From a phage, in assembly GCA_017822615.1 (NCBI GenBank), contig GCA_017822615.1_4530.1: a DNA stretch of 64,000 bases; one strand, 5' to 3'. How positions within the stretch are numbered: the first letter of the stretch is position 1; every line of letters starts with the position of its first letter. The notes under the pieces were generated by a model, which did no database searches, was not told the DNA's origin, and saw nothing but the letters and a program-made list of their open reading frames with translations. Below, in pieces: positions 1,000 through 34,711 of this stretch. Both the position numbers and the translations under genes were made by a program.

Positions 1000-1008
1000 G
1001 GAGAGAAC

Positions 1009-1152: not shown

Positions 1153-1158
1153 GAAACA

Positions 1159-1515: not shown

Positions 1516-2066
1516 TGTTTATTACAAGTGATTTGCATTTTATGCACAAACGTATACGAGAGTTTGCTCCTGAATATCGACCGTGGGAAGATATGGACCA
1601 CATGACAGAAGCACTGATCGAAGCATGGAATAAATGTGCTACTACTCCTGGTGTTAAGATGTGGCATTTGGGCGACTTCTGTTTCGGAACTGAAGAAGAT
1701 ACCCGTAAAATTGCTTCTCGTCTCCAAGGAGATATCACCTACTGTGTTGGGAACCATGACTACAGCAAACACCGAGAAGTGCTTGCAGAGTATGGTGAAG
1801 TGGTGTATTATGACGAAGTGAAATATCAGAAGCTGTTCTTCGTCTTAAGTCATTACCCTATGGCCTCCTGGAATAAACAAGGTCGTGGATCAATCATGCT
1901 ACACGGGCATTCCCACGGATCTTTCCCTGATGAAGCTTATGGTAAAATGTTAGATGTGGGTTGGGATGCACATGGAAAAATCTTGCATTTTGATGAGATA
2001 ATTTCTATGATGAGTAAACGAGATATCGTGACTGTAGACCATCACAAAATAATCAAAGGAGAGTAA
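1515..2066 (+). CDS. calcineurin-like metallophosphoesterase (candidate RNA 3'-phosphatase / 2',3'-cyclic phosphodiesterase)
   Basis: Motifs SDLHF, GDFCFG, GNHDY, HGHSH typical of metallophosphoesterases; adjacent to RNA ligase and kinase. Confidence 0.7.
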   Translation: MFITSDLHFMHKRIREFAPEYRPWEDMDHMTEALIEAWNKCATTPGVKMWHLGDFCFGTEEDTRKIASRLQGDITYCVGNHDYSKHREVLAEYGEVVYYDEVKYQKLFFVLSHYPMASWNKQGRGSIMLHGHSHGSFPDEAYGKMLDVGWDAHGKILHFDEIISMMSKRDIVTVDHHKIIKGE

Positions 2067-2067
2067 T

Positions 2068-3000
2068 GTGGCTAAATTTAACTGCGACGATTTGGTTGAA
2101 AAAGGTTTAGTTCATAAGAAAACATATAAAGAAGGAGAGTATTCTGGTCTATCTGTTCTTAAGTATAAGAACAAAGTTTTCTGGGATAACTTATGGGGCA
2201 TTGATTCTCGTCTTCTGGAATGTCGCGGAATCGTTGTTGACGCTGATGACAATGTTGTTATTTGGCCTTTCACTAAGATTTTTAATCATTTTGAGAATGG
2301 CACAGATCTACCAGCGGATGAACTTGTAGATGTGGTTCGTAAAGTAAATGGTTTTATGGCCTCTGTGGGTGTATATAAAGGTCAACTTATTGTATCGACA
2401 ACAGGAAGCCTTGAATCAGATTTTGCAAGTATTGCAAAGAATCATATTGTTTCAGAGTGTGATGACATAGAACATTTCATCAAATGGACAGAGAGTGCAA
2501 AAGCAACTTTCCTTTTTGAAATCTGTGATCCTTCTGATCCGCATATTGTCGAAGAAGAACCAGGTGCATACTTAATTGGTGCCAGAATTCAAAACCCTGA
2601 TGGGACAAGTTTTATGTTACCTGAAGGTGCTCTTGATGGAATTGCTTCTGTCACCAAATTTAAGCGTCCTGAAGTTTATCCAATGGTTAAGTTTTCAGAT
2701 GTTGTTGAAATGTCTAAACATTGTAAACACGAAGGGTTTGTAGTTCGTGAAACAAACTATCCGTTCAACTTACTTTTAAAAATTAAATCACCACACTATC
2801 TTACTAAGAAGTTTCTTATGCGCGGTGGAGATAAAAAGTGGGATCTGATTTGGGATAATCCGAAAAATGCCAAACAAATTGTTGACGAAGAATATTACGC
2901 TTTGTTAGAATGGATTCGAAATAATTTTACGAAGACTCAATGGGCTGCTTTAAATCAGCAAGAGCGACGTGAAAAAATCGAAAACTTCTTTGGAGGATAA
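2068..3000 (+). CDS. rnlA: RNA ligase 1 (T4 RnlA-like)
   Basis: LLECRGIVVDADDN matches T4 RnlA ALECRGIMFEMDGE; nucleotidyltransferase motifs IV EGFVVR and V LLLKIKSP; motif I appears as KVNG. Confidence 0.65.
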   Translation: MAKFNCDDLVEKGLVHKKTYKEGEYSGLSVLKYKNKVFWDNLWGIDSRLLECRGIVVDADDNVVIWPFTKIFNHFENGTDLPADELVDVVRKVNGFMASVGVYKGQLIVSTTGSLESDFASIAKNHIVSECDDIEHFIKWTESAKATFLFEICDPSDPHIVEEEPGAYLIGARIQNPDGTSFMLPEGALDGIASVTKFKRPEVYPMVKFSDVVEMSKHCKHEGFVVRETNYPFNLLLKIKSPHYLTKKFLMRGGDKKWDLIWDNPKNAKQIVDEEYYALLEWIRNNFTKTQWAALNQQERREKIENFFGG

Positions 3001-3405
3001 ATGAAACAACTTATCATTTTACGTGGCGTTTCAGGTGCTGGTAAATCTACGGTAGCAGAAATTATTTCTGAAGGTTATTGGCCTATCTGTGAGGCAGATC
3101 AATATCATTACACAGAGAGTGGTGTTTACGATTGGAAGCCAGAAAATGTAGGTAAAGCACACGCATGGTGTCAGGGTATTGTTCGTGATGCTATGGCATC
3201 TAATCTTAACAAGATTATTGTTTCTAATACTTCAACCACAGAGAAAGAACTTAAACCTTATCTAGCTCTTGCTGAAGAGTTTGGTTATCAAGTTATCTCT
3301 TTAATTGTTGAAAATAGGCACGGTAATGATTCAATTCACGAGGTTCCACAATATATCCGTGATCAGCAAGAGAAACGTCTTCGTGGTTCACTTAAACTTC
3401 AATAA
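3001..3405 (+). CDS. P-loop polynucleotide/nucleotide kinase (Pnk kinase-domain-like)
   Basis: Walker A GVSGAGKST; 134 aa kinase-only protein following the RNA ligase. Confidence 0.6.
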   Translation: MKQLIILRGVSGAGKSTVAEIISEGYWPICEADQYHYTESGVYDWKPENVGKAHAWCQGIVRDAMASNLNKIIVSNTSTTEKELKPYLALAEEFGYQVISLIVENRHGNDSIHEVPQYIRDQQEKRLRGSLKLQ

Positions 3406-3414
3406 GGAGAAATA

Positions 3415-3741
3415 ATGCAGATTTATACAGATGATCGTAAATATGAGACAATTTTAGATGAAGATACTGGACGAATTACCGTTCTCCGTCACGGTGAAGA
3501 GTGGCGTGATGAAACGGGAGACAATTATATCTTGTCTCTGATTCATCTTATTGAACAAATGCGTGATGATTACGCTGAACTGCATTATGAAAATGAGGCT
3601 AATAAAGTAAAATTTGAAAATGAATTAGAAGAGAAAGAATCCGAAATGGTATATCTAAAAGAAGAGATCTCCCGTTTGGAGGAAGAGATTGATGCTCTTC
3701 AAGAAGAGATTTACGAACTCAACAACGAACTGAACGCTTAA
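3415..3741 (+). CDS. hypothetical acidic coiled-coil protein
   Basis: ORF track; RBS aaggag; heptad-like EEISRLEEEIDALQEEIYEL. Confidence 0.6.
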   Translation: MQIYTDDRKYETILDEDTGRITVLRHGEEWRDETGDNYILSLIHLIEQMRDDYAELHYENEANKVKFENELEEKESEMVYLKEEISRLEEEIDALQEEIYELNNELNA

Positions 3742-3750
3742 GGAGGGATT

Positions 3751-3939
3751 ATGAAAAAAGATATCGTTGTTGGTTGGCTGACTTGCCCTTGTGGTAGTAA
3801 TGACATAACTGTAAACACAGAGGGTGATAAAAATTATTTATTCTACGGGGATAAAATCACTTGCAATACCTGCGGACGTGTTGGTATTATAGAAACCGAT
3901 GATTGTTGTGCTTTTGAATCTTGGGATGAAGAAGAATGA
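3751..3939 (+). CDS. small zinc-ribbon protein
   Basis: CPCG...CNTCG cysteine pairs; RBS aaggaggg. Confidence 0.55.
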   Translation: MKKDIVVGWLTCPCGSNDITVNTEGDKNYLFYGDKITCNTCGRVGIIETDDCCAFESWDEEE

Positions 3940-4157
3940 GTACTGCATTTTATGTTCGTAGCGGAGACGAGGATTTTCTAGCTACTTTTGATGACGGTGA
4001 TCTTGAAGATATGTATGAAGATATGCTTGACTATGCCAAAGGGCAAGGTTTCACAAGCATTGATTATATGTTGGCAACATCTACAACGTTACTCGACGCA
4101 GATTTGGATGAAGTGTGTAACAGATTGAAAATTTCAGTTTTTAAATGGGAGGACTAA
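3936..4157 (+). CDS. hypothetical protein
   Basis: ORF track; overlapping start/stop with neighbours. Confidence 0.5.
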   Translation: MSTAFYVRSGDEDFLATFDDGDLEDMYEDMLDYAKGQGFTSIDYMLATSTTLLDADLDEVCNRLKISVFKWED

Positions 4158-5272
4158 TGCAACAAACAAATCAAACGCTGTATGGTAAAGATTCAAAAGG
4201 AAAACTTAAACAGTGGACAGTATATACAGATGGTGCAGTTGTTACTGTAGCTCATGGAAGAGTAGGTGGAAAGATCACAGAAAAATCTTATACAGCAGAA
4301 GCAAAAAACATTGGTCGTTCCAATGAAACAACACCGGAAGAACAAGCTGAACTTGAAGCTTTTGCCAAATGGACAAAACAGTTAAAGAATGGCTATTATA
4401 AAACAAAAGAAGAAGCTGAAAACCATGTTCCTTCCACACCAATGAAATGCCAGGATTATAAAGATTATCCTGAAAGGGTTGTGTTCCCTGGTTATGCACA
4501 ATACAAACTGAACGGGTTACGTTCTATGATTAACATGAAAGGGGAGTGTTTATCAAAAGCTGGGGAAGTGTATAACCTGCCACCTCATTGGAAAGGTATT
4601 CCAAACTTTATTAGTGAAGTTGTTGGTCATCCTCTTGATGGTGAAGTGTTTGCTGGGTTAGGTGTCCTTAGTCTGCAACAAATTAACAGTGCTTGGAAGA
4701 AGCATAATGCAAATACACCTTTGCTGAATTATTACGTATACGATATTCCAGTTCCAGGTCTACCGTTTGAAAAACGTGTTGATGCTCTTGCTGCTCTTAA
4801 GGCAGTAGTTGAAGATTATGGTCTTGACGAGCTTATTTGTGTAGTTCATACAGAGTATATTGAAAACCAAGAGCGGTTTGACGCTTTCTATGAAAAAGCT
4901 TTACTTGAGAAAGCTGAAGGTGTAGTATATCGTAATGCTCACGGAGTTTACGAATTTGATAAACGTTCTTATGACGTTATTAAACGTAAGCCTCGCCACA
5001 CCCTTGAAGTTAAAGTAACAAATTCAAAAAGCGATAAAAATGGCGATGGAGTGTTGACAGGTGAGATGGAAAATGGTAAAGTAGTCGAATTCTTAATGCG
5101 TAAAGATGCTCATGAGACTATCAATTATCGTAAAGCAGAGAATGCTTCTACCTTGATTAATCAGTTCGTTGAAATAGAGTATGAAGAATTTTCAGATGAA
5201 GGTATTCCAACAAAACCTGTTGGTGTTCGTATTCGAGAAATGATCCCAGGCACTTGGGAACCAGCAGAGTAA
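4145..5272 (+). CDS. ATP-dependent DNA ligase (T4 gp30-like)
   Basis: PGYAQYKLNGLR resembles T4 PAFAQLKADGAR (motif I); motif III LDGEVF, IV EGVVYR, V DVIKRK. Alternative start ATG 4157. Confidence 0.75.
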   Translation: MGGLMQQTNQTLYGKDSKGKLKQWTVYTDGAVVTVAHGRVGGKITEKSYTAEAKNIGRSNETTPEEQAELEAFAKWTKQLKNGYYKTKEEAENHVPSTPMKCQDYKDYPERVVFPGYAQYKLNGLRSMINMKGECLSKAGEVYNLPPHWKGIPNFISEVVGHPLDGEVFAGLGVLSLQQINSAWKKHNANTPLLNYYVYDIPVPGLPFEKRVDALAALKAVVEDYGLDELICVVHTEYIENQERFDAFYEKALLEKAEGVVYRNAHGVYEFDKRSYDVIKRKPRHTLEVKVTNSKSDKNGDGVLTGEMENGKVVEFLMRKDAHETINYRKAENASTLINQFVEIEYEEFSDEGIPTKPVGVRIREMIPGTWEPAE

Positions 5273-5281
5273 GGAGGAAAA

Positions 5282-5476
5282 ATGTTCTTAGCCATTTTAA
5301 TCGTTTTCAGTGTACTTTCTTTTTATTGTATGAATGCTTCGGAAAACTTTCCTAAGAATTCAAAGAAAAGAACCGTATGTGTTGTGATTGATTCATGTAT
5401 GTCTGGAGTTGGGTATGCGGTAGTTTCTTGTTTCTTAGCTTATCATTGTTCAAAATACCTGGAGGCATTTTTATGA
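5282..5476 (+). CDS. small hydrophobic protein
   Basis: RBS aaggagga; hydrophobic N-terminus. Confidence 0.45.
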   Translation: MFLAILIVFSVLSFYCMNASENFPKNSKKRTVCVVIDSCMSGVGYAVVSCFLAYHCSKYLEAFL

Positions 5477-5655
5477 TAATTTTAGCAACAATTCTTATGA
5501 TGCTGATAGCAATTGCTATTGTAATTCTGGCATCTTTTCCAGCGGATAAATGGTATTTCAATATTCCACGTATGCTTGTTTTCGGTTTCGCAGGAATTTA
5601 CATGGGTGAGACTGTAGTAAATATTAGCAACTTTCTAGAAAGCTATTTTAAATAA
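5473..5655 (+). CDS. small membrane protein (60 aa)
   Basis: ATG 5473 after ctggagg; two hydrophobic helices; track ORF 5395..5655 read as over-extended. Confidence 0.5.
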   Translation: MIILATILMMLIAIAIVILASFPADKWYFNIPRMLVFGFAGIYMGETVVNISNFLESYFK

Positions 5656-5664
5656 GGAGTTATA

Positions 5665-6390
5665 ATGATCGAGAATTTTTTTAAAGATATTAAGTTCGAT
5701 ACTGAATTTTTCAAAAATGCAGCGAAGCACGTGATTGATTGGAATGCTAAAGCACGAGGTGGTGAACAACCTGAATTCACTCAAGAGCTATTTATGTCCC
5801 AAATCGGATTCGTTCGTGAAGAGCTTAAAGAGTATGAAACAGCCGCGAAAGTAAACGATCATGTAGAACTCTTGGATGCAGCAGCGGATATTTTTGTAGT
5901 ATCCAGTTATCTGACCTACATGTTCTTTGGTGAAGAACATACGATGAATTTCTTGGACTATGCTGTAGGCGATGTTTTTACTCCAACTGTGTATACTGAT
6001 TTTGATGCTTTGGAACAAACATTTACAGAGCCAGTTCAAATGGCACTAATGGCTGCTGGTATTATGCGTATGTCTCGTGACACTCTAATCCGTTCAAAAT
6101 ATCCAGAAAAGAAAGTTATTAAAGAGGTATTGAAAAGTAATGATTCCAAGTATCCAACTAAACAACAGTTGCTGAAAACTTGGAAAACTTCGGATATCGA
6201 TTCAGCCATTGCACAAGAATGCGCTGCAATTGAAGAACGAAATGCCAATCGTCCAGAAGGGGCATACACTGGTGTTCATGCTGTTTATAATGAAAAACAG
6301 AAAGTGTATGTGTTCTTTGATGATAAAGGTAAGATCATGAAACCATCGACCTTTGTCAAACCTAATATTGCAGGTATTATTAATAAGTAA
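5665..6390 (+). CDS. hypothetical protein, possible MazG-like nucleotide pyrophosphohydrolase
   Basis: EELKEYETAA...ELLDAAADIF resembles all-alpha NTP-PPase motif; RBS aaggag. Confidence 0.45.
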   Translation: MIENFFKDIKFDTEFFKNAAKHVIDWNAKARGGEQPEFTQELFMSQIGFVREELKEYETAAKVNDHVELLDAAADIFVVSSYLTYMFFGEEHTMNFLDYAVGDVFTPTVYTDFDALEQTFTEPVQMALMAAGIMRMSRDTLIRSKYPEKKVIKEVLKSNDSKYPTKQQLLKTWKTSDIDSAIAQECAAIEERNANRPEGAYTGVHAVYNEKQKVYVFFDDKGKIMKPSTFVKPNIAGIINK

Positions 6391-26004: not shown

Positions 26005-26018
26005 TCCGAGGAGTAGTT

Positions 26019-26601: not shown

Positions 26602-26931
26602 ATGGAAATTACTACAGAACAAGCCCTTATCGACGAGGGTCGTAAAATCTTAGAAAAGTATTTAGGGGAGATTCATAAAACCCCTGGCTATTTGGGTTGG
26701 AGAATTGTTGAAGCTGTAGATTTCCTTCCTCGTAACAGTAAAAACGTCGAAATGCGATCTCTTTTCTTATTAGTAAAGGTGGATGGGGATACGCCTTTTA
26801 AAGATGCCGCAGAACATATTGAAAAAGTTGAAGAGAAAGCTTATGCAGAATTTGCCGATCTTGTTTTAGAACAAGAGATTGAAGGAAAGGTGAATATTTT
26901 TATTTTCTTAGATTTTGAGGAGGATAAGTGA
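26602..26931 (+). CDS. hypothetical protein
   Basis: ORF track; RBS gaggagg. Confidence 0.55.
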   Translation: MEITTEQALIDEGRKILEKYLGEIHKTPGYLGWRIVEAVDFLPRNSKNVEMRSLFLLVKVDGDTPFKDAAEHIEKVEEKAYAEFADLVLEQEIEGKVNIFIFLDFEEDK

Positions 26932-27671
26932 TCATACACAGAGAAATTACTGTTAAAAGCGATCAAGATCTTTTTATAATTGGAGATCTACACGGTTGTT
27001 ATAATTTGTATGAAAAAGGAAAGGCAAAGTTAGGTATCCGAGATACAGATGTGGTTGTATCTCTAGGAGATCTTACTGACCGTGGAAAGCAAAACTTTCG
27101 TTGTGTTTTAGAATTTACTCGTAAACACAATCGCTACGCTATTCGTGGCAATCATGAAGACATGATGATTAAAGGTATGCTGGAAGGAGATCGTAGCTAC
27201 TACGAGTGTTGGTATCAAAATGGAGGATATACGGTCTTTGAAGAATGTGGTGAAGAAGGAGCTACAGCCTTAGCAATGATGACAGAAGATTTACCTGTTG
27301 TTCTCATTGTTAACTACAGAGGCATGAAACTTGCGTTTATTCATGGTGGGTATCCATCTTCTTTGGAATATCTCCCTGTAACAGATATTCCAGAATACAT
27401 TTCGAAGATGACAAAAACACAGGAAAACCGTTTTGCTGAAGCACTTATGTGGGACAGAGATATGGTAGACTGTGCTAAAGAGGGAATGAAACTTCCTGTT
27501 GTGATGGGTGTGGATTATGTGTTTCATGGACACTCTTATGTAAAAACACCTATTATCAATGCGAATCGTGTTTATATGGATACTGGATCTGTGTTCAATA
27601 ATAACTTAACATTTGCTTATTTCGATATGGACGGTGGTCTTCAATTTTATTCAACTCTTGAGGAGGATTAA
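26928..27671 (+). CDS. Ser/Thr protein phosphatase (lambda-PPase-like metallophosphatase)
   Basis: GDLHG, GDLTDRG, GNHE motifs. Confidence 0.8.
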   Translation: MIIHREITVKSDQDLFIIGDLHGCYNLYEKGKAKLGIRDTDVVVSLGDLTDRGKQNFRCVLEFTRKHNRYAIRGNHEDMMIKGMLEGDRSYYECWYQNGGYTVFEECGEEGATALAMMTEDLPVVLIVNYRGMKLAFIHGGYPSSLEYLPVTDIPEYISKMTKTQENRFAEALMWDRDMVDCAKEGMKLPVVMGVDYVFHGHSYVKTPIINANRVYMDTGSVFNNNLTFAYFDMDGGLQFYSTLEED

Positions 27672-27979
27672 TGTATAAGATTACAATTATTCAAAGTGTA
27701 GGTAATATCCGTAAAGAAGTTATCTTAGAAACAGAAGATGTTAATCTTGTTCGTGAGATTGTTCTTAAGGAAGATAACCTGCAAGCTGTAGAATCAGATG
27801 CACCGAATCTTATGGTGGATCAAGAATATTCTGAACTTCGTCGTATTTTTGAAGAGATTCAGAAGAAAGAAACACAACCGACCATAAAACCTTTTGGTCC
27901 TTATGATCCGAGCAATCCTAGCAGTCCTTGGATCATGAGAAATACGGAACCGTATACACCTTTTGAAATTACTTGTTGA
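27671..27979 (+). CDS. hypothetical protein
   Basis: ORF track. Confidence 0.55.
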   Translation: MYKITIIQSVGNIRKEVILETEDVNLVREIVLKEDNLQAVESDAPNLMVDQEYSELRRIFEEIQKKETQPTIKPFGPYDPSNPSSPWIMRNTEPYTPFEITC

Positions 27980-27986
27980 GGTGATT

Positions 27987-28568
27987 ATGGCAGAACTGTT
28001 CTATACGGGAGTTGGAAGTAGAGACATATCCGAAGAAGAGTGGGCTTTGATGGTAGGCATAGGGAAATGGCTTTCAAACCTTGGGTTTAAATTAAGGTCT
28101 GGGAAGGCAGAGGGTAGTGATTCTGCTTTTGAAACAGGTGTCCAAGAGTCTGAAAATCCTACTAACAAGGAGATTTATGTTCCTTGGGAAAATTTCAAAG
28201 GTAATCAGATTCCAGGGGATGTTATTGTTCTTGCAAAACCAGATACAATGAACTATGCTATCTCTGTGCAATGGATCAAAGATGTTCACCCAGCTTATGA
28301 AAAGCTTAAGCAGGGTGCTAGAAAATTGCACCAACGTAATGTGCATCAAGTGTTAGGTAGAGATTTGGAAAATCCTGCTCCATCCTGTTTCTTGTTGGCT
28401 TGTGCTAATACTGATAAACATGGAGATGCAAAAGGTGGAACAGCTACGGCTTGGAAGATAGCTAAAGCCAATAATGTTCCTTGTTTAAACATTCGTGGGA
28501 AAACAAAACAAGAGATTTACGATTTTCTACGACCTTTGGTAATGAGGGCAATAACAAGTGATTCCTAA
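27987..28568 (+). CDS. SLOG-superfamily (DprA/Smf- or LOG-like) Rossmann protein
   Basis: GVGSRDIS...IGKWLSNLGFKLRSGKAEGSDSAFETGV follows the GSR...SG-A-G-D-A pattern of DprA/SLOG domains. Confidence 0.45.
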   Translation: MAELFYTGVGSRDISEEEWALMVGIGKWLSNLGFKLRSGKAEGSDSAFETGVQESENPTNKEIYVPWENFKGNQIPGDVIVLAKPDTMNYAISVQWIKDVHPAYEKLKQGARKLHQRNVHQVLGRDLENPAPSCFLLACANTDKHGDAKGGTATAWKIAKANNVPCLNIRGKTKQEIYDFLRPLVMRAITSDS

Positions 28569-29070
28569 ACGTAAACGTGGTGAACAAAGAACAAACTTGG
28601 CAGAAATCTTAGATTACAACATGGTTAATGATGTGACAAAAGAAATTCTCCCTGTTGTAGAAGATATTCTTCATAGAGGGTTACGATTCTGCTCTGATCG
28701 GGTGCATTTCATGTGGACACATAAAAGTGACTCCGCTTTGAATTTCTATCCTTTGGACTATACTCTGAACAATACGGAGATGAAAGATATCAACAAATAC
28801 TTAATGGGATATAAAGATATAACAGAAACTGTTCTTGGAGAATTGGCAGAAATCTTGGCTAACGATATCCTTAGAAATATTAATAAGGCTCTTGACAGAA
28901 GCCCAGCAGGAGTAGTAGTATCTTTTGCTGTGCCAGATATGGTTAAATATGAGTCTACAATACCTAATAAAGCTTATGCCTTTCTTCGGAGAGACGTTCG
29001 TGGAAATGTGTTGGAGATGGAGTCAAACTACAAGATTGAGGAGGTTTTATGGCAGAGTTCGGATCAGTAA
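28558..29070 (+). CDS. hypothetical protein
   Basis: ORF track. Confidence 0.55.
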   Translation: MIPKRKRGEQRTNLAEILDYNMVNDVTKEILPVVEDILHRGLRFCSDRVHFMWTHKSDSALNFYPLDYTLNNTEMKDINKYLMGYKDITETVLGELAEILANDILRNINKALDRSPAGVVVSFAVPDMVKYESTIPNKAYAFLRRDVRGNVLEMESNYKIEEVLWQSSDQ

Positions 29071-29339
29071 CAAGTTTTGAAAGTAACTTCGTTACCGCTT
29101 GGGAAGCTTGGGATGAAATGGGTGTTGGGGAACTTTATTTTTACAATGTAACACTACGTCCAGAGTATGCTTACCTGGTACCAGAAGGAACAGTTCAAAT
29201 TGGCATGTATTTGTCTTCTCAAGACGGTGTTGTTCAATTTGAGTTTTATTCTAACACAACGGACAACGAATTTACATACCGCGCATTTCATGTCAACATG
29301 TCTTTAGGAGAGGAGAAATTTTATGACGACCAAGTTTAA
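29049..29339 (+). CDS. hypothetical protein
   Basis: ORF track. Confidence 0.5.
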   Translation: MAEFGSVTSFESNFVTAWEAWDEMGVGELYFYNVTLRPEYAYLVPEGTVQIGMYLSSQDGVVQFEFYSNTTDNEFTYRAFHVNMSLGEEKFYDDQV

Positions 29340-29520
29340 AACAGTAGAAGAAGCCGTAAAAGCAGCTTATGAGGCTTTAGCGGAAGCAGAGCAGTTAGCA
29401 GATGAGACTGGTAAAGGTTTCCGTTTCTCCCCTGAGTATGGGATGGGTGGTTATTATGATCCAGAAGACGAAAATGAGAACACTGGAACAAATTGGCATC
29501 CATCTTCTTTAAGTTGTTAA
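29323..29520 (+). CDS. small acidic protein, W-x-SSS-C C-terminal family member 1
   Basis: C-terminus ...TNWHPSSLSC. Confidence 0.5.
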   Translation: MTTKFKTVEEAVKAAYEALAEAEQLADETGKGFRFSPEYGMGGYYDPEDENENTGTNWHPSSLSC

Positions 29521-29531
29521 TAGGAGGTAAA

Positions 29532-29801
29532 GTGGGAATCGAAGATATCAAAGGTTATAAACCGCATACCGATGACAAAATTGGTAAAGTGAATGCTATT
29601 AAAGATGCTGAAGTTCGATTAGGATTAATCTTTGATGCTCTAATGTCTGAATTGTGGGCTGAACTGGATGATTGTGAAGATTTGGAAGAGTCTACCAATA
29701 TATCCACCCGCCTTGACCAAATTTCAATAGCAAAGACTAAGTTGAAAGAAGCTTCTATGTGGGCCTGTCGTTCCGTTTTCCAACCAGAGGAGAAATACTA
29801 A
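29532..29801 (+). CDS. hypothetical protein
   Basis: GTG 29532 after taggagg (track start 29493). Confidence 0.5.
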   Translation: MGIEDIKGYKPHTDDKIGKVNAIKDAEVRLGLIFDALMSELWAELDDCEDLEESTNISTRLDQISIAKTKLKEASMWACRSVFQPEEKY

Positions 29802-30019
29802 TGAGTGATCGTAATGTTGAAGAATTAACTGAAAAAGCCCAAGCTATTATGGCTTTAGTGGACGAACTTACAAAAGAAGCTGAAGATGCTGGTTTTGGTC
29901 TTAGTTTAGAAAATGACGCAATCTGTTTTGAAGATTGGCAATCCTCTTCTTGTTATGGTGAAGGTGATGATGGTTTCGTCGTTAATTCTCAAGGCGTTTG
30001 GCACAGTAGTAGCTGTTAA
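29801..30019 (+). CDS. small acidic protein, W-x-SSS-C C-terminal family member 2
   Basis: C-terminus ...GVWHSSSC; internal DWQSSSC; ATG 29801 after agaggag. Confidence 0.55.
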   Translation: MSDRNVEELTEKAQAIMALVDELTKEAEDAGFGLSLENDAICFEDWQSSSCYGEGDDGFVVNSQGVWHSSSC

Positions 30020-30028
30020 GGAGAGATT

Positions 30029-30301
30029 GTGGAGTCTGAAGGCGAACTGCTGATAAAAAAGAAAGTTAAAGAGATGGAACAAGCACAAAGAAAGTTTCGT
30101 AAGGAGATTGAAGAACTTTGTGAACAGTTTCAGGAACAAGCTTGGATAGGTGACTACGGTAACGGAGAAACTTATTACCCTACAGGAACGCCAGCCGCAG
30201 ATCACTATATTGATTTCATTTGTGAAGATTATGGTGTAGAGTTGGATGAAAATGGTTTAACCACAAGAGGTGTTTGGATCTCTTCTTCCTCAATGTGTTA
30301 G
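30029..30301 (+). CDS. small acidic protein, W-x-SSS-C C-terminal family member 3
   Basis: C-terminus ...GVWISSSSMC; GTG start after aaggagag. Confidence 0.55.
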   Translation: MESEGELLIKKKVKEMEQAQRKFRKEIEELCEQFQEQAWIGDYGNGETYYPTGTPAADHYIDFICEDYGVELDENGLTTRGVWISSSSMC

Positions 30302-30311
30302 TAAATAATAA

Positions 30312-30331
30312 CCCGCTTCGGCGGGTTTTTT
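30312..30331 (+). terminator. rho-independent terminator (UUCG tetraloop)
   Basis: cccgcttcggcggg followed by T6. Confidence 0.7.
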
Positions 30332-30332
30332 A

Positions 30333-30361
30333 TTGACAGGAATCTGGAAGCTTGATAAACT
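30333..30361 (+). promoter_or_regulatory. sigma70-type promoter
   Basis: TTGACA 30333-30338, 17-nt spacer, TAAACT 30356-30361. Confidence 0.6.
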
Positions 30362-30391
30362 TAACCTATCAACCAATAGAGGAGAAATATT

Positions 30392-31333
30392 ATGGTGTTA
30401 ATTGGTAGCCGTGCATTGCAAATTCATGCTATGGACATGGGAAAAGACTTGTATCGCCCTTGTGTAGATTTAGATTACCTGTGTACAGAACAAGAGTGGG
30501 AAGAATTATCAAAAATGTTCTCTCAAGAGGAGTTTGTTGAACTTGTAGAACGTAAAGGAAACAAAGGCCATGTCAAAATGATAGCTGGTGCACATTTGGA
30601 ATACGATATTGCTTCTCAAGGAGATAGCACAGAAGCTTTGATTAGTTATTGTGAAGATTCTGATGATGTTCGTCGAACTTACGCTGGACATGTTGTTGCT
30701 CCTTTAGATGTGCTCTACCTTCTTAAAATGAGTCATCGTTTTAAAAAGGATAGTCCTCACTTCTTTAAAACTATGAAAGATATTCATTTCATGCGGTCAC
30801 TGGGCGCAAAGATCCCAGAAAATCTTAAGAGTATTTATGAGTTGCGTGAGAAAGAAACATACACTTACTCTCATCCGAACTTAAACGTAAAAAGTAAAGA
30901 CTTTTTTAAAGGTGATGAGGTTCCGTATGTTTATGATCATGATTCTATCCATGAAGCAATCGCGGTAATGGATGCTCCGGCATATAAATCTTATATGAAA
31001 GATGGAAGTGAAGTTATGACCAGCAAAGAAAAGTTTTTTGCTCAACCAAAACATGTGCGCCTGTTAGGTGTTTATGAAGAAGCGTGTGTTTTGGCTTTGG
31101 AACGTTCACAAATTCCTTTCGGTGGAGAGATCGGAGGTCCAACCCCTAAGCAAAGTTTTATAATGGCTTTATCTAAAGTCTGCACATCCATCACTAGTGG
31201 TTGGTTTAGGGAATATGCTTGGGAAAACTTTTATGTTGTTATTAAGCTATATGAAAACATGGGCGAAAACGACTATGTTGAACGTTTTAAAGCTAATCAA
31301 CATGTAGTAAAGCCTTTTGAAGGAGGTTATTAA
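30392..31333 (+). CDS. hypothetical protein, possible Pol-beta-type nucleotidyltransferase fold
   Basis: N-terminal LIGSRALQ...VDLDYL loosely fits the GS...DxD nucleotidyltransferase signature (spacing atypical). Confidence 0.4.
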   Translation: MVLIGSRALQIHAMDMGKDLYRPCVDLDYLCTEQEWEELSKMFSQEEFVELVERKGNKGHVKMIAGAHLEYDIASQGDSTEALISYCEDSDDVRRTYAGHVVAPLDVLYLLKMSHRFKKDSPHFFKTMKDIHFMRSLGAKIPENLKSIYELREKETYTYSHPNLNVKSKDFFKGDEVPYVYDHDSIHEAIAVMDAPAYKSYMKDGSEVMTSKEKFFAQPKHVRLLGVYEEACVLALERSQIPFGGEIGGPTPKQSFIMALSKVCTSITSGWFREYAWENFYVVIKLYENMGENDYVERFKANQHVVKPFEGGY

Positions 31334-31334
31334 T

Positions 31335-31730
31335 ATGTGTGGATATCTTTCAGAAAGTTATTTCAAAGTGACGCATGAGGATTTAGAAAAAGCACGATTG
31401 AAACTGACAGCTATTATTGAATACTCTAATACTGTTGATCACAGATTAAAGACTACTAAAGTATCTGTTCCTTGTTGGTTAGGTTTACGGCATAAAATAA
31501 TGTCTCAACATGACCATGTTGTTCGAGAGATGCATGGTTGGTGTTGGTTTCACGATGTGGCTCTGCATTTTGGTTATATTACAGAAGAAGAGCATAGATT
31601 CTGTGAACTAACATATCGTATTCCAACCCTTCACGATTTAGATTTGTGGAAGAAAGCAAACGAGATTTTTCTTACAGAAAGTGATTGGCGTAAAGTTATG
31701 GCTTGTCTTGAATGGAGGGGTAATGAGTAA
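31335..31730 (+). CDS. hypothetical protein
   Basis: ATG 31335 after aggagg (track start 31317). Confidence 0.55.
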   Translation: MCGYLSESYFKVTHEDLEKARLKLTAIIEYSNTVDHRLKTTKVSVPCWLGLRHKIMSQHDHVVREMHGWCWFHDVALHFGYITEEEHRFCELTYRIPTLHDLDLWKKANEIFLTESDWRKVMACLEWRGNE

Positions 31731-32406
31731 AACAGTTTTGTCTATGTTTGACGGATCTGGGATCATGGTGTTACGTTATGCCGAAGCAGGTCACAAGTGT
31801 TTTTGTGTAAACGCTGATGAAGGGGATCACGGTAAATACGAGGTTAGGATGGAGCACCCAAACATAACCTATGTGAATGCCTGGATAGATTCTACATTCA
31901 ACCCTGAAGATCATGGGATACCTAAACCCGATATTATTTTTGGATTTCCACCTTGCACTATGTTAGCAGGTAGTGGTAGCAAACACGAACGCAGCACAGA
32001 GGAATTGGATGAAGCTTTAGCTAATATTCGTGTAGTGGAAGCTTTGGGTAACAAATATAATGTTCCTTGGATGATTGAGAACCCAGTAGGTAAACTTTCA
32101 ACCTTATGGCGTAAACCCGATTTTTACTTTGATCCTTATGAGTATGGTGGGTATTTGTTTGAAGAGGAAGGAAGCTTTCATCCTAAAATGCCTACCCGTG
32201 ATGGGTATACAAAGAAAACTTGTATTTGGCACGGCAATGGTTTTGTTCAACCAGTGAAGAAACCAGTAGATCATATAGGCTGCTTCTGGGGTTGGAAAAG
32301 CTTAGGTGGAGCTAGTGCAAAAACAAAACAACTTAGATCACTAACCGCACGTGGTTTTGCTCGTGCAGTGTTTTTGTCTAACAATCTTCTAGATAAGGAG
32401 AAATAA
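31723..32406 (+). CDS. small C5-cytosine methyltransferase-like protein (227 aa)
   Basis: Motif I LSMFDGSG, motif IV GFPPCT (Pro-Cys), motif VI ENPVG; no obvious target-recognition domain. Confidence 0.5.
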   Translation: MSKTVLSMFDGSGIMVLRYAEAGHKCFCVNADEGDHGKYEVRMEHPNITYVNAWIDSTFNPEDHGIPKPDIIFGFPPCTMLAGSGSKHERSTEELDEALANIRVVEALGNKYNVPWMIENPVGKLSTLWRKPDFYFDPYEYGGYLFEEEGSFHPKMPTRDGYTKKTCIWHGNGFVQPVKKPVDHIGCFWGWKSLGGASAKTKQLRSLTARGFARAVFLSNNLLDKEK

Positions 32407-33059
32407 TGTCAAATTCAAAACCAGTGGTTGCTTATCAAGTAGATCGTAATGATGGTGAAGGAAGTGTTGTTATTTTCAGTACACACGGTCTTGAGGCTCG
32501 TCGGAAAGGTGCATATCGTTTAGAATGTGAGTTTGAAGACTGCACAAGCCACCGTGTCAAACAATTCGATCAATATGCTGATAAAGGCTTCGTCCCTATC
32601 AAAGCGTTACTGGAAGATGGTTGGTGGGTATATTCTGCTTTTGATTACTCAAAACTGGAGGAGTCAGCTTCGTGCGCCTCCGAGATCGAATATGATGATT
32701 ACTATGACACTCTCTACCTTCCAGAATGGCTTGTCTTTTCCCCTGATGAGAGAAGCGTCTGGAAAACTTGGGAAGAAATGGAGAGACATGCGTATAGCAT
32801 CAATGAAGCCTTAGATCGTAAAGCTTGGTTTATTGAGGCAGTAAAGGCGGCATACCCTCAATTTTCATTCTGTGATTTCACTGGTGGCCCAGGGTACATT
32901 ACACATACAGCCTCTTTTGAGTTCCCTGGCTCACGTTATAAAGGTAATGTTTATTGGGATTGGGATGAAAATAAACAACCTTCGGCTCAAGACTTCCGTT
33001 GCTATGTTTGTCAAGGTGATCAAGAAGCCCTTGACAAATACCTTCAAAGTCTGGTATAG
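32406..33059 (+). CDS. hypothetical protein
   Basis: ORF track. Confidence 0.6.
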   Translation: MSNSKPVVAYQVDRNDGEGSVVIFSTHGLEARRKGAYRLECEFEDCTSHRVKQFDQYADKGFVPIKALLEDGWWVYSAFDYSKLEESASCASEIEYDDYYDTLYLPEWLVFSPDERSVWKTWEEMERHAYSINEALDRKAWFIEAVKAAYPQFSFCDFTGGPGYITHTASFEFPGSRYKGNVYWDWDENKQPSAQDFRCYVCQGDQEALDKYLQSLV

Positions 33060-33076
33060 TGCCGATATCTGAACAA

Positions 33077-33105
33077 AGCCTCCTGTTTCAGGGGGCTTTT
33101 CTTTT
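33077..33105 (+). terminator. rho-independent terminator
   Basis: Hairpin agcctcc...gggggct followed by tttcttttat. Confidence 0.6.
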
Positions 33106-33117
33106 ATAGGAGGGAAT

Positions 33118-33591
33118 ATGTTTCAAGTAAATGTCAATGTGCATAATAGTTACTCTGATTGTGAAACGTGTGGCTATAATTCATCTAATGTTGTTCGTAT
33201 TAGTGGCGATTTAGGAGAAGCTTCTTTTGGAGAAGAAGCAAGTTGCTTTAGTGGTATGGATGCAGAATGGAATGATATTGCACATTGGTTGGTGAGCAAA
33301 CTAAAAGAAAAAGAGAAACCATTTCCTACCCTGCTTGATCGTTCTCTTGTGGAAGATGCAGGTAAAGCATATGCAGACTATGCGTATGCAGACGGGAAAT
33401 ATTTGGAAGATGATAAGGCTAACCATTTGCTTTATGTTTACTATGAAGCTGAATCTGCCTACGATAATTATTATAGCATGTCTAACATCCTCCGTCTATT
33501 TGCAGAGTTTGATATTTATTTCGAAGTAGAATTTTCAGAAGATGATACTTACGAATATGATTCTTATGATCCATTTGAGGAGGATGAATAA
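33118..33591 (+). CDS. hypothetical acidic protein
   Basis: ORF track; RBS aggaggg. Confidence 0.6.
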   Translation: MFQVNVNVHNSYSDCETCGYNSSNVVRISGDLGEASFGEEASCFSGMDAEWNDIAHWLVSKLKEKEKPFPTLLDRSLVEDAGKAYADYAYADGKYLEDDKANHLLYVYYEAESAYDNYYSMSNILRLFAEFDIYFEVEFSEDDTYEYDSYDPFEEDE

Positions 33592-34391
33592 TGCCAAGAC
33601 GTGTATATTTTATTAGTGGTGCGGGACTAAGTGCTGACAGCGGAATCCAAACATTTCGCACAGAAACAGATTCTGGAAAGGCATTATGGGATGAATATGA
33701 TTTAACAGAAGTCTGTGACATTTTCAACTTCCGTGACGGTTATCAGCAAGAACAGGGTATTCCTGATGCTATGGGTGGCTTAGATGTGGAAGGATATAAC
33801 CTCTACCGTAAAACTCACGACTTCTACAATAAACGTCGCGTGGAATTAGAGAAAGTTGACCCGAATCCAGCACATCTTCAGATTGGAGAATGGTTCGAAA
33901 AATACGGTGCAGAAAGGATTATTAACATCACTACTAACGTTGACGATCTATTAGAACGCGCTGGAATCGATAGAGAAGAAATATTGCACGTTCATGGTTT
34001 CTTGCCAGAAGTTGTTGTTGATAACAAAATTATCAAAGATGTGGGTTACGCAGCTATTGATGTAGACGATTACAAATATGTGAAGCCTAATGTGGTGTTT
34101 TTTGGTGAGAATGCACCACTCTACACAGACATGTATCACAAACTGGATCAACTAACATCACAAGATATGGTTATCGTTGTAGGCTGCTCTAACCAAGTAA
34201 TCAACTTCAACTGGGAACTCTTCCCTGCCCTGAATATTGGGGTTAAGATGGTTGTAGTTAACCCAGGTTTGAATTTTGTAGAACAAACTCTCTACGAAGA
34301 ACGTGGAGTGCTTGTCTACCGAGAGAAAGCAGGAACAGTCTTCAGTGATGAAGGCTTTATCAAAATGGTTGAAGACCATTTAAACAAATAA
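33591..34391 (+). CDS. Sir2-family (sirtuin-like) protein lacking the zinc-ribbon cysteines
   Basis: ISGAGLSADSGIQTFR, ITTNVDDLLERAG, HVHG, VVFFGE, IVVGCSN match sirtuin motifs; no CxxC pairs between HG and VVFFGE. Confidence 0.75.
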   Translation: MPRRVYFISGAGLSADSGIQTFRTETDSGKALWDEYDLTEVCDIFNFRDGYQQEQGIPDAMGGLDVEGYNLYRKTHDFYNKRRVELEKVDPNPAHLQIGEWFEKYGAERIINITTNVDDLLERAGIDREEILHVHGFLPEVVVDNKIIKDVGYAAIDVDDYKYVKPNVVFFGENAPLYTDMYHKLDQLTSQDMVIVVGCSNQVINFNWELFPALNIGVKMVVVNPGLNFVEQTLYEERGVLVYREKAGTVFSDEGFIKMVEDHLNK

Positions 34392-34400
34392 ACCACTCAA

Positions 34401-34420
34401 GGGGCTTCGGCCCCTTTCTT
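34401..34420 (+). terminator. rho-independent terminator (UUCG tetraloop)
   Basis: ggggcttcggcccc followed by tttctt. Confidence 0.65.
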
Positions 34421-34707: not shown

Positions 34708-34711
34708 AATA

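What the first reader, a model, noticed from the sequence alone, without database searches (positions are those of the whole stretch)
26928..34391. Zn-less Sir2 with a SLOG/DprA-like protein, a putative nucleotidyltransferase and a Ser/Thr phosphatase
Within 7.5 kb the phage carries a sirtuin-like protein (33591-34391) that has all the NAD-binding motifs but none of the zinc-ribbon cysteines, a SLOG-type Rossmann protein (27987-28568), a possible Pol-beta-type nucleotidyltransferase (30392-31333) and a lambda-type protein phosphatase (26928-27671). Sir2 and SLOG domains are the two halves of Thoeris ThsA in bacterial immunity, so phage-encoded free copies could deplete, sequester or mimic NAD-derived signals, or act in NAD salvage. 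Unknown genes 32406-33059 and 33118-33591 immediately precede Sir2 and may be partners. This may be an undescribed counter-defence or NAD-manipulation module.
Basis: partly seen in the sequence, partly recalled or inferred. Interest (0 to 1): 0.65.

Follow-up and report, generated by a model that had tools for sequence, protein, structure and literature searches.

The report
Known phage sirtuin beside unrelated accessory genes

Summary
The window is a Phapecoctavirus (phAPEC8-like) genome; the region is 95-99.7% identical to deposited, annotated phages. All four domain calls hold. The protein at 33591-34391 is a canonical-type sirtuin, closest to E. coli CobB, with every NAD and catalytic residue and no zinc cysteines. 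27987-28568 has a SLOG fold of the DprA type. 30392-31333 is a Pol-beta nucleotidyltransferase closest to MenT/AbiEii-type enzymes. 26928-27671 is a lambda-type phosphatase. The module reading does not hold. Terminator-like hairpins split the genes into separate units, and Sir2 has these neighbours in only 8 of 21 Sir2 lineages, which a lineage-conserved backbone order could explain. The four families are spread differently across phages. Neither Sir2 nor SLOG is of the Thoeris ThsA type. The zinc-less phage Sir2 was noted in 2016, and in 2022 its clade was proposed to act in RNA repair. In rV5-like phages Sir2 sits inside an RNA ligase, kinase and phosphoesterase cassette; this window carries that cassette at 655-6390, 27 kb upstream. 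The only tightly coupled partner here is a small acidic protein with three invariant cysteines (33118-33591), found only in a few close lineages. The Sir2 is probably an active NAD-dependent transferase; its substrate is unknown.

The parts
26928..27671 (+). PPP-family (lambda NinI / PrpA-PrpB-like) Ser/Thr protein phosphatase
   Evidence: Pfam Metallophos E=2.7e-13; phrog_246 E=1.8e-75; NCBIfam PrpA/PrpB 94 bits, below the equivalog cutoff. GDxHG, GDxxDRG and GNHE motifs are in the sequence. 1363 phage records.
27987..28568 (+). Stand-alone SLOG-fold protein with DprA-type motifs (Rossmann domain only)
30310..30327 (+). Terminator-like hairpin followed by a promoter-like site; separates the phosphatase/SLOG stretch from the NTase unit
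   Evidence: Annotated as a terminator in phAPEC8.
30392..31333 (+). Pol-beta-superfamily nucleotidyltransferase (DUF7277) with a conserved helical C-terminal domain (DUF7275); closest solved folds are the MenT/AbiEii-type and ANT(2'')/LnuA-type enzymes
31335..31730 (+). Unknown protein (phrog_16551), same unit as the NTase
   Evidence: no Pfam, NCBIfam or PADLOC assignment.
31723..32406 (+). Short C5-cytosine (Dcm-like) DNA methyltransferase
   Evidence: phrog_757 E=6.7e-85; weak PADLOC MTase_II/DruM hits. FDGSG, FPPC and ENP motifs are in the sequence. Annotated Dcm in relatives.
32406..33059 (+). Unknown acidic protein (phrog_8514), 54-600 nt upstream of Sir2 in 8 related lineages
   Evidence: Absent near Sir2 in T5-like and rV5-like phages.
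33075..33099 (+). Strong terminator-like hairpin (11-bp stem) plus an overlapping promoter-like site, between 32406-33059 and 33118-33591
33118..33591 (+). Small acidic protein (pI 4.05) with an invariant CxxCG...AxC motif; its stop codon overlaps the Sir2 start codon (TAATG)
   Evidence: phrog_9509. Overlap seen. Found in only 4 Sir2 lineages. Only 10 representatives among 1.84 billion proteins, none fused to Sir2. C15, C18 and C43 are invariant.
33591..34391 (+). Phage-clade sirtuin: CobB-derived, zinc-less, with catalytic residues intact
34399..34416 (+). Terminator-like hairpin directly after Sir2
655..6390 (+). RNA-end-repair cassette that flanks Sir2 in rV5-like phages. Here it lies 27 kb upstream on the same strand: cREC-like 655-999, metallophosphoesterase 1515-2066, Rnl1-type RNA ligase 2068-3000, P-loop kinase 3001-3405, ATP-dependent DNA ligase 4145-5272, MazG-like pyrophosphatase 5665-6390.
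   Evidence: tblastn and blastp against the rV5/PVP-SE1-type Sir2 neighbours: 30-80% identity depending on the component, lowest for the DNA ligase. PHROG assignments. Pfam hits on the rV5-type homologues. Annotated context in RudolfGeigy and PVP-SE1.

Best explanation
The 7.5-kb stretch is the end of the long rightward early/middle accessory-gene arm of a phAPEC8-like (Phapecoctavirus) E. coli myophage. It holds several auxiliary genes that are inherited independently and appear to be transcribed separately. It is not one functional module.

**Shown here**
- A lambda-type Ser/Thr phosphatase.
- A stand-alone SLOG protein with DprA-type motifs.
- A MenT/AbiEii-like nucleotidyltransferase with a C-terminal DUF7275 domain.
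- A short Dcm-like methyltransferase.
- A sirtuin of the phage-specific, CobB-derived, zinc-less clade that also occurs in T5-like, rV5-like, KVP40-like and some jumbo phages.

**Inferred**
- The sirtuin is catalytically active. It binds NAD+, releases nicotinamide and transfers ADP-ribose onto a nucleophile, because every NAD-binding residue and the catalytic histidine are invariant across the clade.
- Its substrate carries an anionic group, because the class-III Tyr-x-x-Arg pair that binds the acyl carboxylate in CobB and Sirt5 is invariant too.
- The most likely reaction is CobB-like removal of acidic acyl groups (succinyl or malonyl type) or acetyl groups from lysines of host or phage proteins, carried out without the zinc ribbon.
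- The main alternative is the RNA 2'-phosphate transfer proposed in 2022.

The phosphatase, SLOG protein, nucleotidyltransferase and methyltransferase each act on their own targets.

The confidence of 0.6 is for the whole statement. The gene identities and the 'no module' conclusion rate higher, about 0.8. The specific deacylase reaction rates lower, about 0.4.
For: **Identity of the phage.** The region is 99.7% identical to phage MirsaeidiM_Esher1 and 95% to phAPEC8 over its whole length.

**Domain assignments.**

**No module.**
- Of 59 IMG/VR loci encoding this Sir2, only 12 have the phosphatase within 10 kb, 14 the SLOG protein, 8 the NTase and 5 the gene at 33118.
- By Sir2 lineage, the block is present in 8 of 21. 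It is split by an inversion in three of them, lineages 12, 14 and 16 (L045-L048, L050, L055). The NTase and Dcm genes are missing in one lineage that keeps everything else.
- Counts across phage genomes differ: Sir2 981 records, SLOG 1443, NTase 735, phosphatase 1363, each with a different host and phage make-up.
- Terminator-like hairpins lie at 30310, 33075, 34399 and 34711.

**Sir2 is of the CobB type.**
- The clade profile's best PDB hit is E. coli CobB 1s5p at E=5.6e-23, with FYNkRR aligned to CobB FYNARR.
- The best NCBIfam hits are NAD-dependent protein deacylase models.
- There is no PADLOC hit.
- Invariant catalytic set: G10 A11 G12, F22 R23, Y79, R82, N116, D118, H135, F171, E173, G198, S200, V203, N224.

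**Prior descriptions.** PMC5107563; PMC9503650.
Against: - No biochemical data exist for any member of this sirtuin clade in the searched library, so the deacylase assignment rests on conserved residues only.
- The same residues would serve any NAD-dependent ADP-ribosyl transfer.
- The motif after G-C-S (NQVINFNWELFP) differs from the canonical GTSLxVxP substrate-stapling segment, and the zinc domain that helps form the substrate cleft is remodelled. The substrate may therefore not be an acyl-lysine peptide.
- Gene context in rV5-like and jumbo phages points to RNA-end processing, not protein deacylation (PMC9503650).
- Independent inheritance does not prove independent function within this phage.
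- Whole-genome co-occurrence could only be compared through summary counts, not with a test corrected for phylogeny.
Confidence: 0.6

Rival explanations
1. RNA-repair reading (Iyer et al. 2022). The sirtuin uses NAD+ the way Tpt1/KptA does. It removes a 2'-phosphate left at an RNA junction or end after cleavage by a host anticodon nuclease or another metal-independent RNase. In this phage it would work in trans with the cassette at 655-3405: the cREC-like protein and the metallophosphoesterase heal the end, the kinase phosphorylates the 5'-OH, and the Rnl1-type ligase seals the break. The invariant Tyr-x-x-Arg pair would bind the phosphate.
For: - In six of the 21 Sir2 lineages the neighbours within 5 kb include the metallophosphoesterase or the MazG-type pyrophosphatase, and in five the Rnl1-type ligase and the P-loop kinase.
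- Sir2 sits directly between the kinase and the DNA ligase in PVP-SE1, and in the RNA ligase-Sir2-DNA ligase block in RudolfGeigy.
- The window carries every component of that cassette at 655-6390, at 30-80% identity.
- The window's Sir2 matches Serratia phage BF, rV5-like and T5-like sirtuins, the exemplars of the published clade.
- The hypothesis is published in PMC9503650.
Against: - Here Sir2 is 27 kb from the cassette and in its own unit.
- The close relative nieznany keeps Sir2 but lacks the ligase and the kinase.
- T5-like phages, about half of all Sir2-bearing genomes, mostly lack this RNA ligase: 15 Salmonella phage records have the ligase against 289 with Sir2.
- An Rnl1 plus metallophosphoesterase pathway does not by itself leave a 2'-phosphate (general knowledge of T4 and Pnkp end healing).
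- No sirtuin has been shown to carry out this reaction.
Confidence: 0.25
2. Sir2, SLOG, NTase and phosphatase cooperate as a counter-defence or NAD-signal-manipulating module, for example by destroying, sequestering or mimicking Thoeris or CBASS signals.
For: - Viral SLOG proteins have been predicted to bind or degrade ADP-ribose-derived signals (PMC9503650).
- Phapecoctavirus-type phages do carry tested anti-TIR functions elsewhere in the genome. One is an Av05 NTase that makes competitor cyclic dinucleotides; another is the MazG-like Atd1 (preprint 10.1101/2022.06.09.495361 and PMC11370490).
- The region lies in an accessory arm that also holds two DNA methyltransferases.
Against: - Sir2 has these neighbours in only 8 of its 21 lineages, and the family distributions differ.
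- The genes lie in separate units bounded by terminator-like hairpins.
- The Sir2 is not ThsA/SIR2_2-type and has no PADLOC hit.
- The SLOG protein has DprA-type motifs, and the ThsA SLOG domain is only the 15th-ranked fold match.
- The NTase lacks the catalytic motif of the published phage cGAMP-forming NTases, and that motif occurs nowhere in the window.
Confidence: 0.07
3. Host-takeover reading. The sirtuin is mainly a protein mono-ADP-ribosyltransferase or an NADase. It would modify host proteins or lower NAD+ during early infection, as T4 Alt/Mod enzymes or SirTM-type sirtuins do, rather than act as a deacylase.
For: - The zinc ribbon is lost and the substrate-stapling segment is remodelled.
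- Other zinc-less Sir2 domains act as NADases in bacterial defence (general knowledge; papers listed).
- Several phage groups that carry this Sir2 also encode NAD+ salvage genes. NadV and PRPP synthetase lie 5-7 kb from Sir2 in PVP-SE1. KVP40-like phages are discussed in PMC5107563.
Against: - The protein matches canonical deacylase models and not the defence NADase families.
- The class-III Tyr-x-x-Arg pair is kept.
- No NAD+ salvage genes are annotated in the whole genome of the close relative nieznany, and a tblastn with the PRPP synthetase found nothing in the window or in nieznany.
Confidence: 0.12

Closest known systems
Phage sirtuin clade of Iyer, Burroughs, Anantharaman and Aravind 2022 (PMC9503650), also called 'Sir2/CobB' of T5, KVP40, rV5 and PVP-SE1 (PMC5107563)
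   Same: Same protein family. The window's Sir2 is 45-60% identical to the T5-like, rV5-like and PVP-SE1 proteins and 35-39% to the Vibrio schizoT4-like and Serratia BF proteins. It has the same missing zinc ligands and the same conserved catalytic set.
   Different: The gene context differs from the three published neighbourhood types. Here Sir2 follows a Dcm-like methyltransferase, an unknown acidic protein and a small protein with three invariant cysteines, while the RNA ligase cassette lies 27 kb away.
E. coli CobB / human Sirt5 (class III sirtuins, NAD-dependent lysine deacylases)
   Same: Best sequence and profile match. Shared GAGxS, xNxD, HG, FGE, GxS and N motifs and the Tyr-x-x-Arg pair.
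   Different: No zinc-ribbon cysteines. TTNVD in place of TQNID. The segment after G-C-S is distinct and strongly conserved. Most members carry a roughly 30-residue insertion at positions 46-75. Scores fall far below the NCBIfam CobB equivalog cutoffs (94.5 against 243; 79.7 against 320).
Thoeris ThsA (Sir2 NADase fused to a cADPR-sensing SLOG domain)
   Same: Both superfamilies, Sir2 and SLOG, are present in the region. Neither this Sir2 nor ThsA Sir2 has a zinc ribbon (the ThsA half from general knowledge).
DprA / ShosA Rossmann (SLOG) domain
   Different: The protein is 193 aa, roughly the size of a Rossmann domain alone, so there is little room for DprA's flanking SAM-like and winged-helix domains. 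It scores below the Pfam threshold itself (12.7 against 29.6 bits). Its ligand is unknown.
MenT / AbiEii (DUF1814) nucleotidyltransferase toxins, which extend tRNA 3' ends (PMC7450476, PMC10435456)
   Different: No sequence-level match to any nucleotidyltransferase model in Pfam, including AbiEii. An extra conserved helical region of roughly 170 residues (part of DUF7275) has no fold match. No antitoxin-like partner was identified. The gene is phage-borne, mostly in T4-like phages.

Membership tests
Sirtuin (Pfam SIR2, PF02146) | Profile score above the Pfam gathering threshold | tested here: met
   74.5 bits against 24; E=1.4e-20.
Sirtuin (Pfam SIR2, PF02146) | NAD-binding Rossmann motifs and the catalytic histidine | tested here: met
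   GAGxS, F22 R23, N116 D118, H135 G136, FGE, G198 x S200 and N224 are invariant in the clade and align to CobB.
Sirtuin (Pfam SIR2, PF02146) | Four-cysteine zinc ribbon in the small domain | tested here: not met
   No cysteine in residues 137-165 in any of 14 diverse clade members. CobB has its cysteines in the aligned segment.
Class III sirtuin / CobB orthologue | Tyr-x-x-Arg acyl-carboxylate-binding pair | tested here: met
   Y79 and R82 are invariant. FYNKRR aligns to CobB FYNARR. The role of the pair in CobB and Sirt5 is from general knowledge.
Class III sirtuin / CobB orthologue | NCBIfam equivalog/subfamily score cutoff | tested here: not met
   94.5 bits against 243 (NF001753); 79.7 against 320 (NF040867).
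Class III sirtuin / CobB orthologue | NAD-dependent lysine deacylase activity | not testable with these tools
   Needs an enzyme assay.
Thoeris ThsA-type Sir2-SLOG effector | Sir2 domain of the SIR2_2 / defence type | tested here: not met
   SIR2_2 scores 14.5 bits against a 24.5 cutoff. No PADLOC model hit at E<=0.1.
Thoeris ThsA-type Sir2-SLOG effector | Sir2 and SLOG in one protein or one conserved operon | tested here: not met
   The genes are 5 kb apart with terminator-like hairpins between them. SLOG lies within 10 kb of Sir2 in only 14 of 59 loci.
SLOG superfamily (DprA-like branch) | Rossmannoid SLOG fold | tested here: met
SLOG superfamily (DprA-like branch) | DprA sequence motifs / Pfam DNA_processg_A | tested here: inconclusive
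   The GSR, RSGxAxGxD, HxRNxxQ and GGTxT blocks are invariant. The family profile hits DprA 3maj at E=0.027. The window protein scores 12.7 bits against a 29.6 cutoff. Six relatives have PF02481 on record.
Pol-beta nucleotidyltransferase / MenT-AbiEii (DUF1814) | hG[GS] ... [DE]x[DE] ... [DE] catalytic residues | tested here: met
   G5 S6, D26 D28 and E70 are invariant in 33 sequences.
Pol-beta nucleotidyltransferase / MenT-AbiEii (DUF1814) | Fold similarity to solved members | tested here: met
Pol-beta nucleotidyltransferase / MenT-AbiEii (DUF1814) | Sequence-profile membership (Pfam AbiEii model) | tested here: not met
   The only hits above Pfam's cut-offs are DUF7275 and DUF7277; the one other hit at E<=0.1 (CLCA, 13.3 bits against 25.6) is below threshold, and no nucleotidyltransferase model appears.
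Phage cGAMP-forming anti-TIR-STING NTases (Ho et al. preprint) | GS-x-AY[GAN]T-x4-SDxD catalytic motif | tested here: not met
   The motif and relaxed versions of it are absent from all six frames of the window. Here GS and DxD are 19 residues apart.
PPP-family lambda-type Ser/Thr phosphatase | Metallophos profile plus the GDxHG / GDxxDRG / GNHE motifs | tested here: met
   Below the PrpA/PrpB equivalog cutoffs (94 against 326).
Published phage 'RNA-repair sirtuin' neighbourhoods (PMC9503650) | Sir2 adjacent to RNA ligase, cREC, kinase or phosphoesterase genes | tested here: not met
   Same Sir2 clade, and all cassette genes are present in the window, but at 655-6390, 27 kb upstream.

The most novel reading that the evidence does not exclude
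The translationally coupled pair 33118-33591 and Sir2 could be a two-subunit enzyme. The small, very acidic protein has an invariant CxxCG...AxC motif. It might supply in trans a metal-binding knuckle in place of the sirtuin's lost zinc ribbon. Alternatively its acidic tail might act as a substrate or nucleic-acid mimic that gates the sirtuin. That would make it a lineage-specific regulatory subunit for a zinc-less sirtuin.
Probability: 0.08. Interest if true: 0.6.

Novelty: already known. Interest (0 to 1): 0.28.

Why it matters
About a thousand sequenced virulent phages of enterobacteria and vibrios carry this zinc-less sirtuin, including T5-like, rV5-like and phAPEC8-like phages that literature hits describe as biocontrol or phage-therapy candidates. 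I found no biochemical study of it. If it proves to be an RNA 2'-phosphotransferase, that would be a new reaction for sirtuins and a new arm of phage tRNA repair. If it is a deacylase, it would show phages rewriting host protein acylation. This window adds no new kind of system. It does show three things:
- The sirtuin can be uncoupled from the RNA-repair cassette within a genome.
- The neighbouring SLOG, nucleotidyltransferase and phosphatase genes should be studied as separate functions.
- A MenT-like nucleotidyltransferase family (DUF7277/DUF7275) is widespread in T4-like and phAPEC8-like phages and has no assigned role.

Tried and rejected
- **Literature.** Searches for work on phAPEC8 or Phapecoctavirus Sir2, phage or viral sirtuins, T5 Sir2-like, and DUF7275/DUF7277 found no experimental study.
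- **PADLOC.** A scan of ten proteins from the region found no defence-system match for Sir2, the NTase or the unknown proteins. The only hint was ShosA for the SLOG protein, at E=0.02.
- **Published anti-TIR NTase.** I tested whether the NTase is the Av05 cyclic-dinucleotide synthase. Its catalytic motif is absent from the window, so that enzyme must lie elsewhere in such genomes.
- **Universal Sir2 partner.** I looked for one small protein upstream of Sir2 across the 21 lineages. The abutting small ORFs fall into unrelated clusters and none carries a CxxC motif outside the phAPEC8-like group.
- **Fusions.** I looked for fusions of the protein at 33118 to Sir2 in 1.84 billion representatives and found none. 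There were 10 hits, all 70-186 aa.
- **PDB by sequence.** Sequence-only searches for the SLOG protein and the NTase gave nothing usable, so structure prediction was needed.
- **tRNA scan.** There are no tRNA genes in the window. In the relative nieznany the tRNA genes lie elsewhere in the genome.

Full report
**What the window is.** The region 26928-34391 is 99.7% identical over its full length to Escherichia phage MirsaeidiM_Esher1, 99.1% to 'Klebsiella' phage ZCKP1 and 95% to phAPEC8. All are Stephanstirmvirinae of the genus Phapecoctavirus, myophages of about 150 kb. The genes lie at the end of a long +-strand block. That block also holds DNA ligase, exonucleases, ThyX, ribonucleotide reductase, dTDP-rhamnose synthesis genes, glutaredoxin, PhoH, an HslV-like peptidase and two DNA methyltransferases. 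It ends at a bidirectional terminator near 34.7 kb, where the coding strand and the GC skew both flip.

**Check of the observation.**
- *Sir2 (33591-34391).* It passes Pfam SIR2 (74.5 bits, E=1.4e-20) and matches phrog_2162 at E=1e-96.
- *Zinc-less claim.* This is correct and holds for the whole clade. In 14 members down to 51% identity the only conserved cysteines are C42 and C199. Neither lies in the segment that aligns to CobB's cysteine-bearing ribbon. Meanwhile GAG, F22/R23, N116/D118, H135, FGE, G198/S200 and N224 are invariant.
- *Phosphatase (26928-27671).* It is a PPP-family enzyme with all metal-binding motifs.

**Is it a module?** I fetched 59 IMG/VR loci that encode a relative of this Sir2, each with 10 kb of flank where the contig allowed. 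I then searched them with every protein from 23.6 to 34.7 kb of the window.
- Only 12 loci have the phosphatase nearby, 14 the SLOG protein, 8 the NTase, 10 the Dcm-like methyltransferase, 11 the gene at 32406 and 5 the gene at 33118.
- After grouping Sir2 into 21 lineages at 75% identity, these neighbours appear in 8 lineages. Those 8 share much of the same gene order from HslV to Sir2, so they look like relatives with a common backbone. I did not assign them a taxonomy.
- In three of those lineages an inversion puts HslV...phosphatase...SLOG on the opposite strand from NTase-Dcm-32406-Sir2.
- One lineage has lost the NTase and Dcm genes but keeps the rest.
- T5-like lineages place Sir2 between ribonucleotide reductase genes and the primase. 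rV5-like and PVP-SE1-like lineages place it in a quite different cassette.
- Counts over 50,697 phage records differ too. Sir2 is in 981, mainly Escherichia, Salmonella and Klebsiella phages of the T5, rV5 and phAPEC8 types. SLOG is in 1443, including 287 Pseudomonas and many T4-like phages. The NTase is in 735, mostly T4-like. The phosphatase is in 1363, including lambdoid and Vibrio phages.
- Strong terminator-like hairpins, each followed by a promoter-like site or a ribosome-binding site, lie at 30310-30327, 33075-33099 and 34399-34416. The predicted units are [...phosphatase...SLOG...], [NTase, 31335, Dcm, 32406], [33118, Sir2] and [34435]. The hairpins are consensus matches, not mapped RNA ends.

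Together these results argue for independently acquired accessory genes held in a lineage-conserved order, not a functional module.

**The ThsA analogy.** The Sir2 is of the canonical type, not the defence type.
- It scores below threshold on SIR2_2 and hits no PADLOC model.
- The clade profile's best solved relative is E. coli CobB (E=5.6e-23), followed by archaeal Sir2Af2/Af1, Sirt5 and Sir2Tm.
- The SLOG protein shares DprA's motif blocks. Its only sub-0.1 sequence-level matches to characterised families are weak ones: Pfam DNA_processg_A (E=0.07, together with an equally weak glycosyl-hydrolase hit), DprA 3maj (E=0.027) and the DprA-like ShosA (E=0.02).

So neither gene is a free copy of a ThsA half.

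**What was already known.**
- Skliros et al. 2016 (PMC5107563) reported that the Sir2/CobB of KVP40-like Vibrio phages lacks the zinc ligands. They noted homologues in T5 and other large phages and proposed deacetylation of host acetyl-CoA synthetase.
- Iyer et al. 2022 (PMC9503650) defined a distinct clade of phage sirtuins, with Serratia phage BF, Escherichia phage V5 and T5-like SP15 as exemplars. From gene neighbourhoods they proposed a KptA-like removal of RNA 2'-phosphates. They also surveyed viral SLOG domains.
- The window's Sir2 matches sirtuins of Serratia phage BF and of rV5-like and T5-like phages. Its exact sequence is already deposited as 'NAD-dependent protein deacylase'.
- I found no biochemical study of any member.

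In rV5-like and PVP-SE1-like phages Sir2 sits in a cassette with a metallophosphoesterase, an Rnl1-type RNA ligase, a cREC-like protein, a P-loop kinase, an ATP-dependent DNA ligase and a MazG-type pyrophosphatase. This window contains every one of those genes, at 30-80% identity, but at 655-6390:
- cREC-like 655-999
- phosphoesterase 1515-2066
- RNA ligase 2068-3000
- kinase 3001-3405
- DNA ligase 4145-5272
- MazG 5665-6390

At least 57 records in the phage collection carry this ligase-kinase stretch over most of its length, whereas the close relative nieznany lacks the ligase and kinase but keeps Sir2. In this genus, then, the sirtuin is physically and genetically uncoupled from the RNA-repair genes. 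T5-like phages carry the sirtuin largely without this ligase. This weakens the RNA-repair hypothesis but does not exclude it.

**Mechanism.** Every NAD-contacting residue and the catalytic histidine are invariant, so an active NAD-consuming transferase is very likely. The class-III Tyr79-x-x-Arg82 pair is invariant as well. In CobB and Sirt5 that pair binds the carboxylate of succinyl- or malonyl-lysine (general knowledge), so the substrate probably carries an anionic group.
- *Best guess:* a CobB-like lysine deacylase working without a zinc ribbon. My estimate for this specific reaction is about 0.4.
- *Main rival:* RNA 2'-phosphate transfer (0.25).
- *Then:* protein ADP-ribosylation or NAD hydrolysis (0.12).

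The remodelled small domain and the unusual, strongly conserved G-C-S-N-Q-V-I-N-F-N-W segment are the main reasons for caution.

**The other genes.**
- The NTase family (DUF7277+DUF7275; 2208 proteins in the large protein database at E<=0.001) is structurally MenT/AbiEii-like. MenT toxins extend tRNA 3' ends (PMC7450476, PMC10435456). This family matches no nucleotidyltransferase Pfam model, has a further conserved helical region with no fold match, and lacks the motif of the published phage cGAMP-forming NTases. Its substrate is unknown; an RNA 3' end is a reasonable guess.
- The SLOG protein is about the size of a DprA Rossmann domain alone, and its ligand is unknown.

**Possible partners of Sir2.**
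- The gene at 32406-33059 lies 54-600 nt upstream of Sir2 in the 8 related lineages, but a terminator-like hairpin separates them here.
- The gene at 33118-33591 overlaps the Sir2 start (TAATG) and encodes an acidic protein (pI 4.05). C15, C18, G19, G38, A41 and C43 stay invariant down to 26% identity. The family has only ten representatives among 1.84 billion proteins, and none is fused to Sir2.
- A role as a lineage-specific subunit or regulator of the zinc-less sirtuin is possible but untested, and I rate it low.

**Verdict.** The sirtuin and its zinc-less state are already described and its function remains open. The window adds a fourth gene context for the clade and shows that the sirtuin can be separated from the RNA-repair cassette.

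Noticed in passing
window 655-6390: A complete rV5-type RNA-end-repair cassette: cREC-like protein, metallophosphoesterase, Rnl1-type RNA ligase, P-loop kinase, ATP-dependent DNA ligase and MazG-like pyrophosphatase. In rV5 and PVP-SE1 the same cassette contains the Sir2 gene. Here Sir2 lies 27 kb downstream. The relative nieznany lacks the ligase and the kinase.
   Followed up: yes
window 5665-6390: MazG-like nucleotide pyrophosphohydrolase. A preprint (PMC11370490) lists the anti-TIR gene Atd1, a phage MazG that degrades (p)ppGpp, as present in Phapecoctavirus. I did not test whether this gene is that homologue.
   Followed up: partly
window 29323-29520, 29801-30019, 30029-30301: Three tandem small paralogues, all phrog_899 (unknown function). 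Each has an N-terminal helix and ends in W-x-S-S-(x)-C.
   Followed up: partly
window 33118-33591: Small acidic protein with an invariant CxxCG...AxC motif and an acidic tail, translationally coupled to Sir2. The family has only 10 representatives in 1.84 billion proteins.
   Followed up: partly
L045-L048, L050, L055 (IMG/VR contigs): In these more distant relatives an inversion puts HslV-methyltransferase-phosphatase-SLOG on the strand opposite to NTase-Dcm-32406-Sir2, converging on Sir2. In L050 the NTase itself was not found.
   Followed up: yes
window 26928-34391 compared with GenBank records: Records named Campylobacter phage B15, Acinetobacter phage vB_AbaM_ABPW7 and Klebsiella phage ZCKP1 are 98.7-99.1% identical to this E. 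coli phage region. The host labels, or the purity of those isolates, look doubtful.
   Followed up: no
window 34711-34734: A bidirectional terminator-like hairpin marks the switch from + strand to - strand genes. The GC skew changes sign at the same place.
   Followed up: no
window 23648-24340 and 26001-26591: An HslV/proteasome-like peptidase (weak Pfam Proteasome hit) and a protein that RefSeq labels 'histidyl tRNA synthetase' but that has no Pfam, NCBIfam or PADLOC support. The label looks unreliable.
   Followed up: no
L057 / L056 (IMG/VR contig of about 90 kb): In a different phage background a Dcm-like methyltransferase (42% identical to 31723-32406) sits directly upstream of Sir2. This is the only neighbour from the region that recurs next to Sir2 outside the phAPEC8-like group. 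It could be chance.
   Followed up: no
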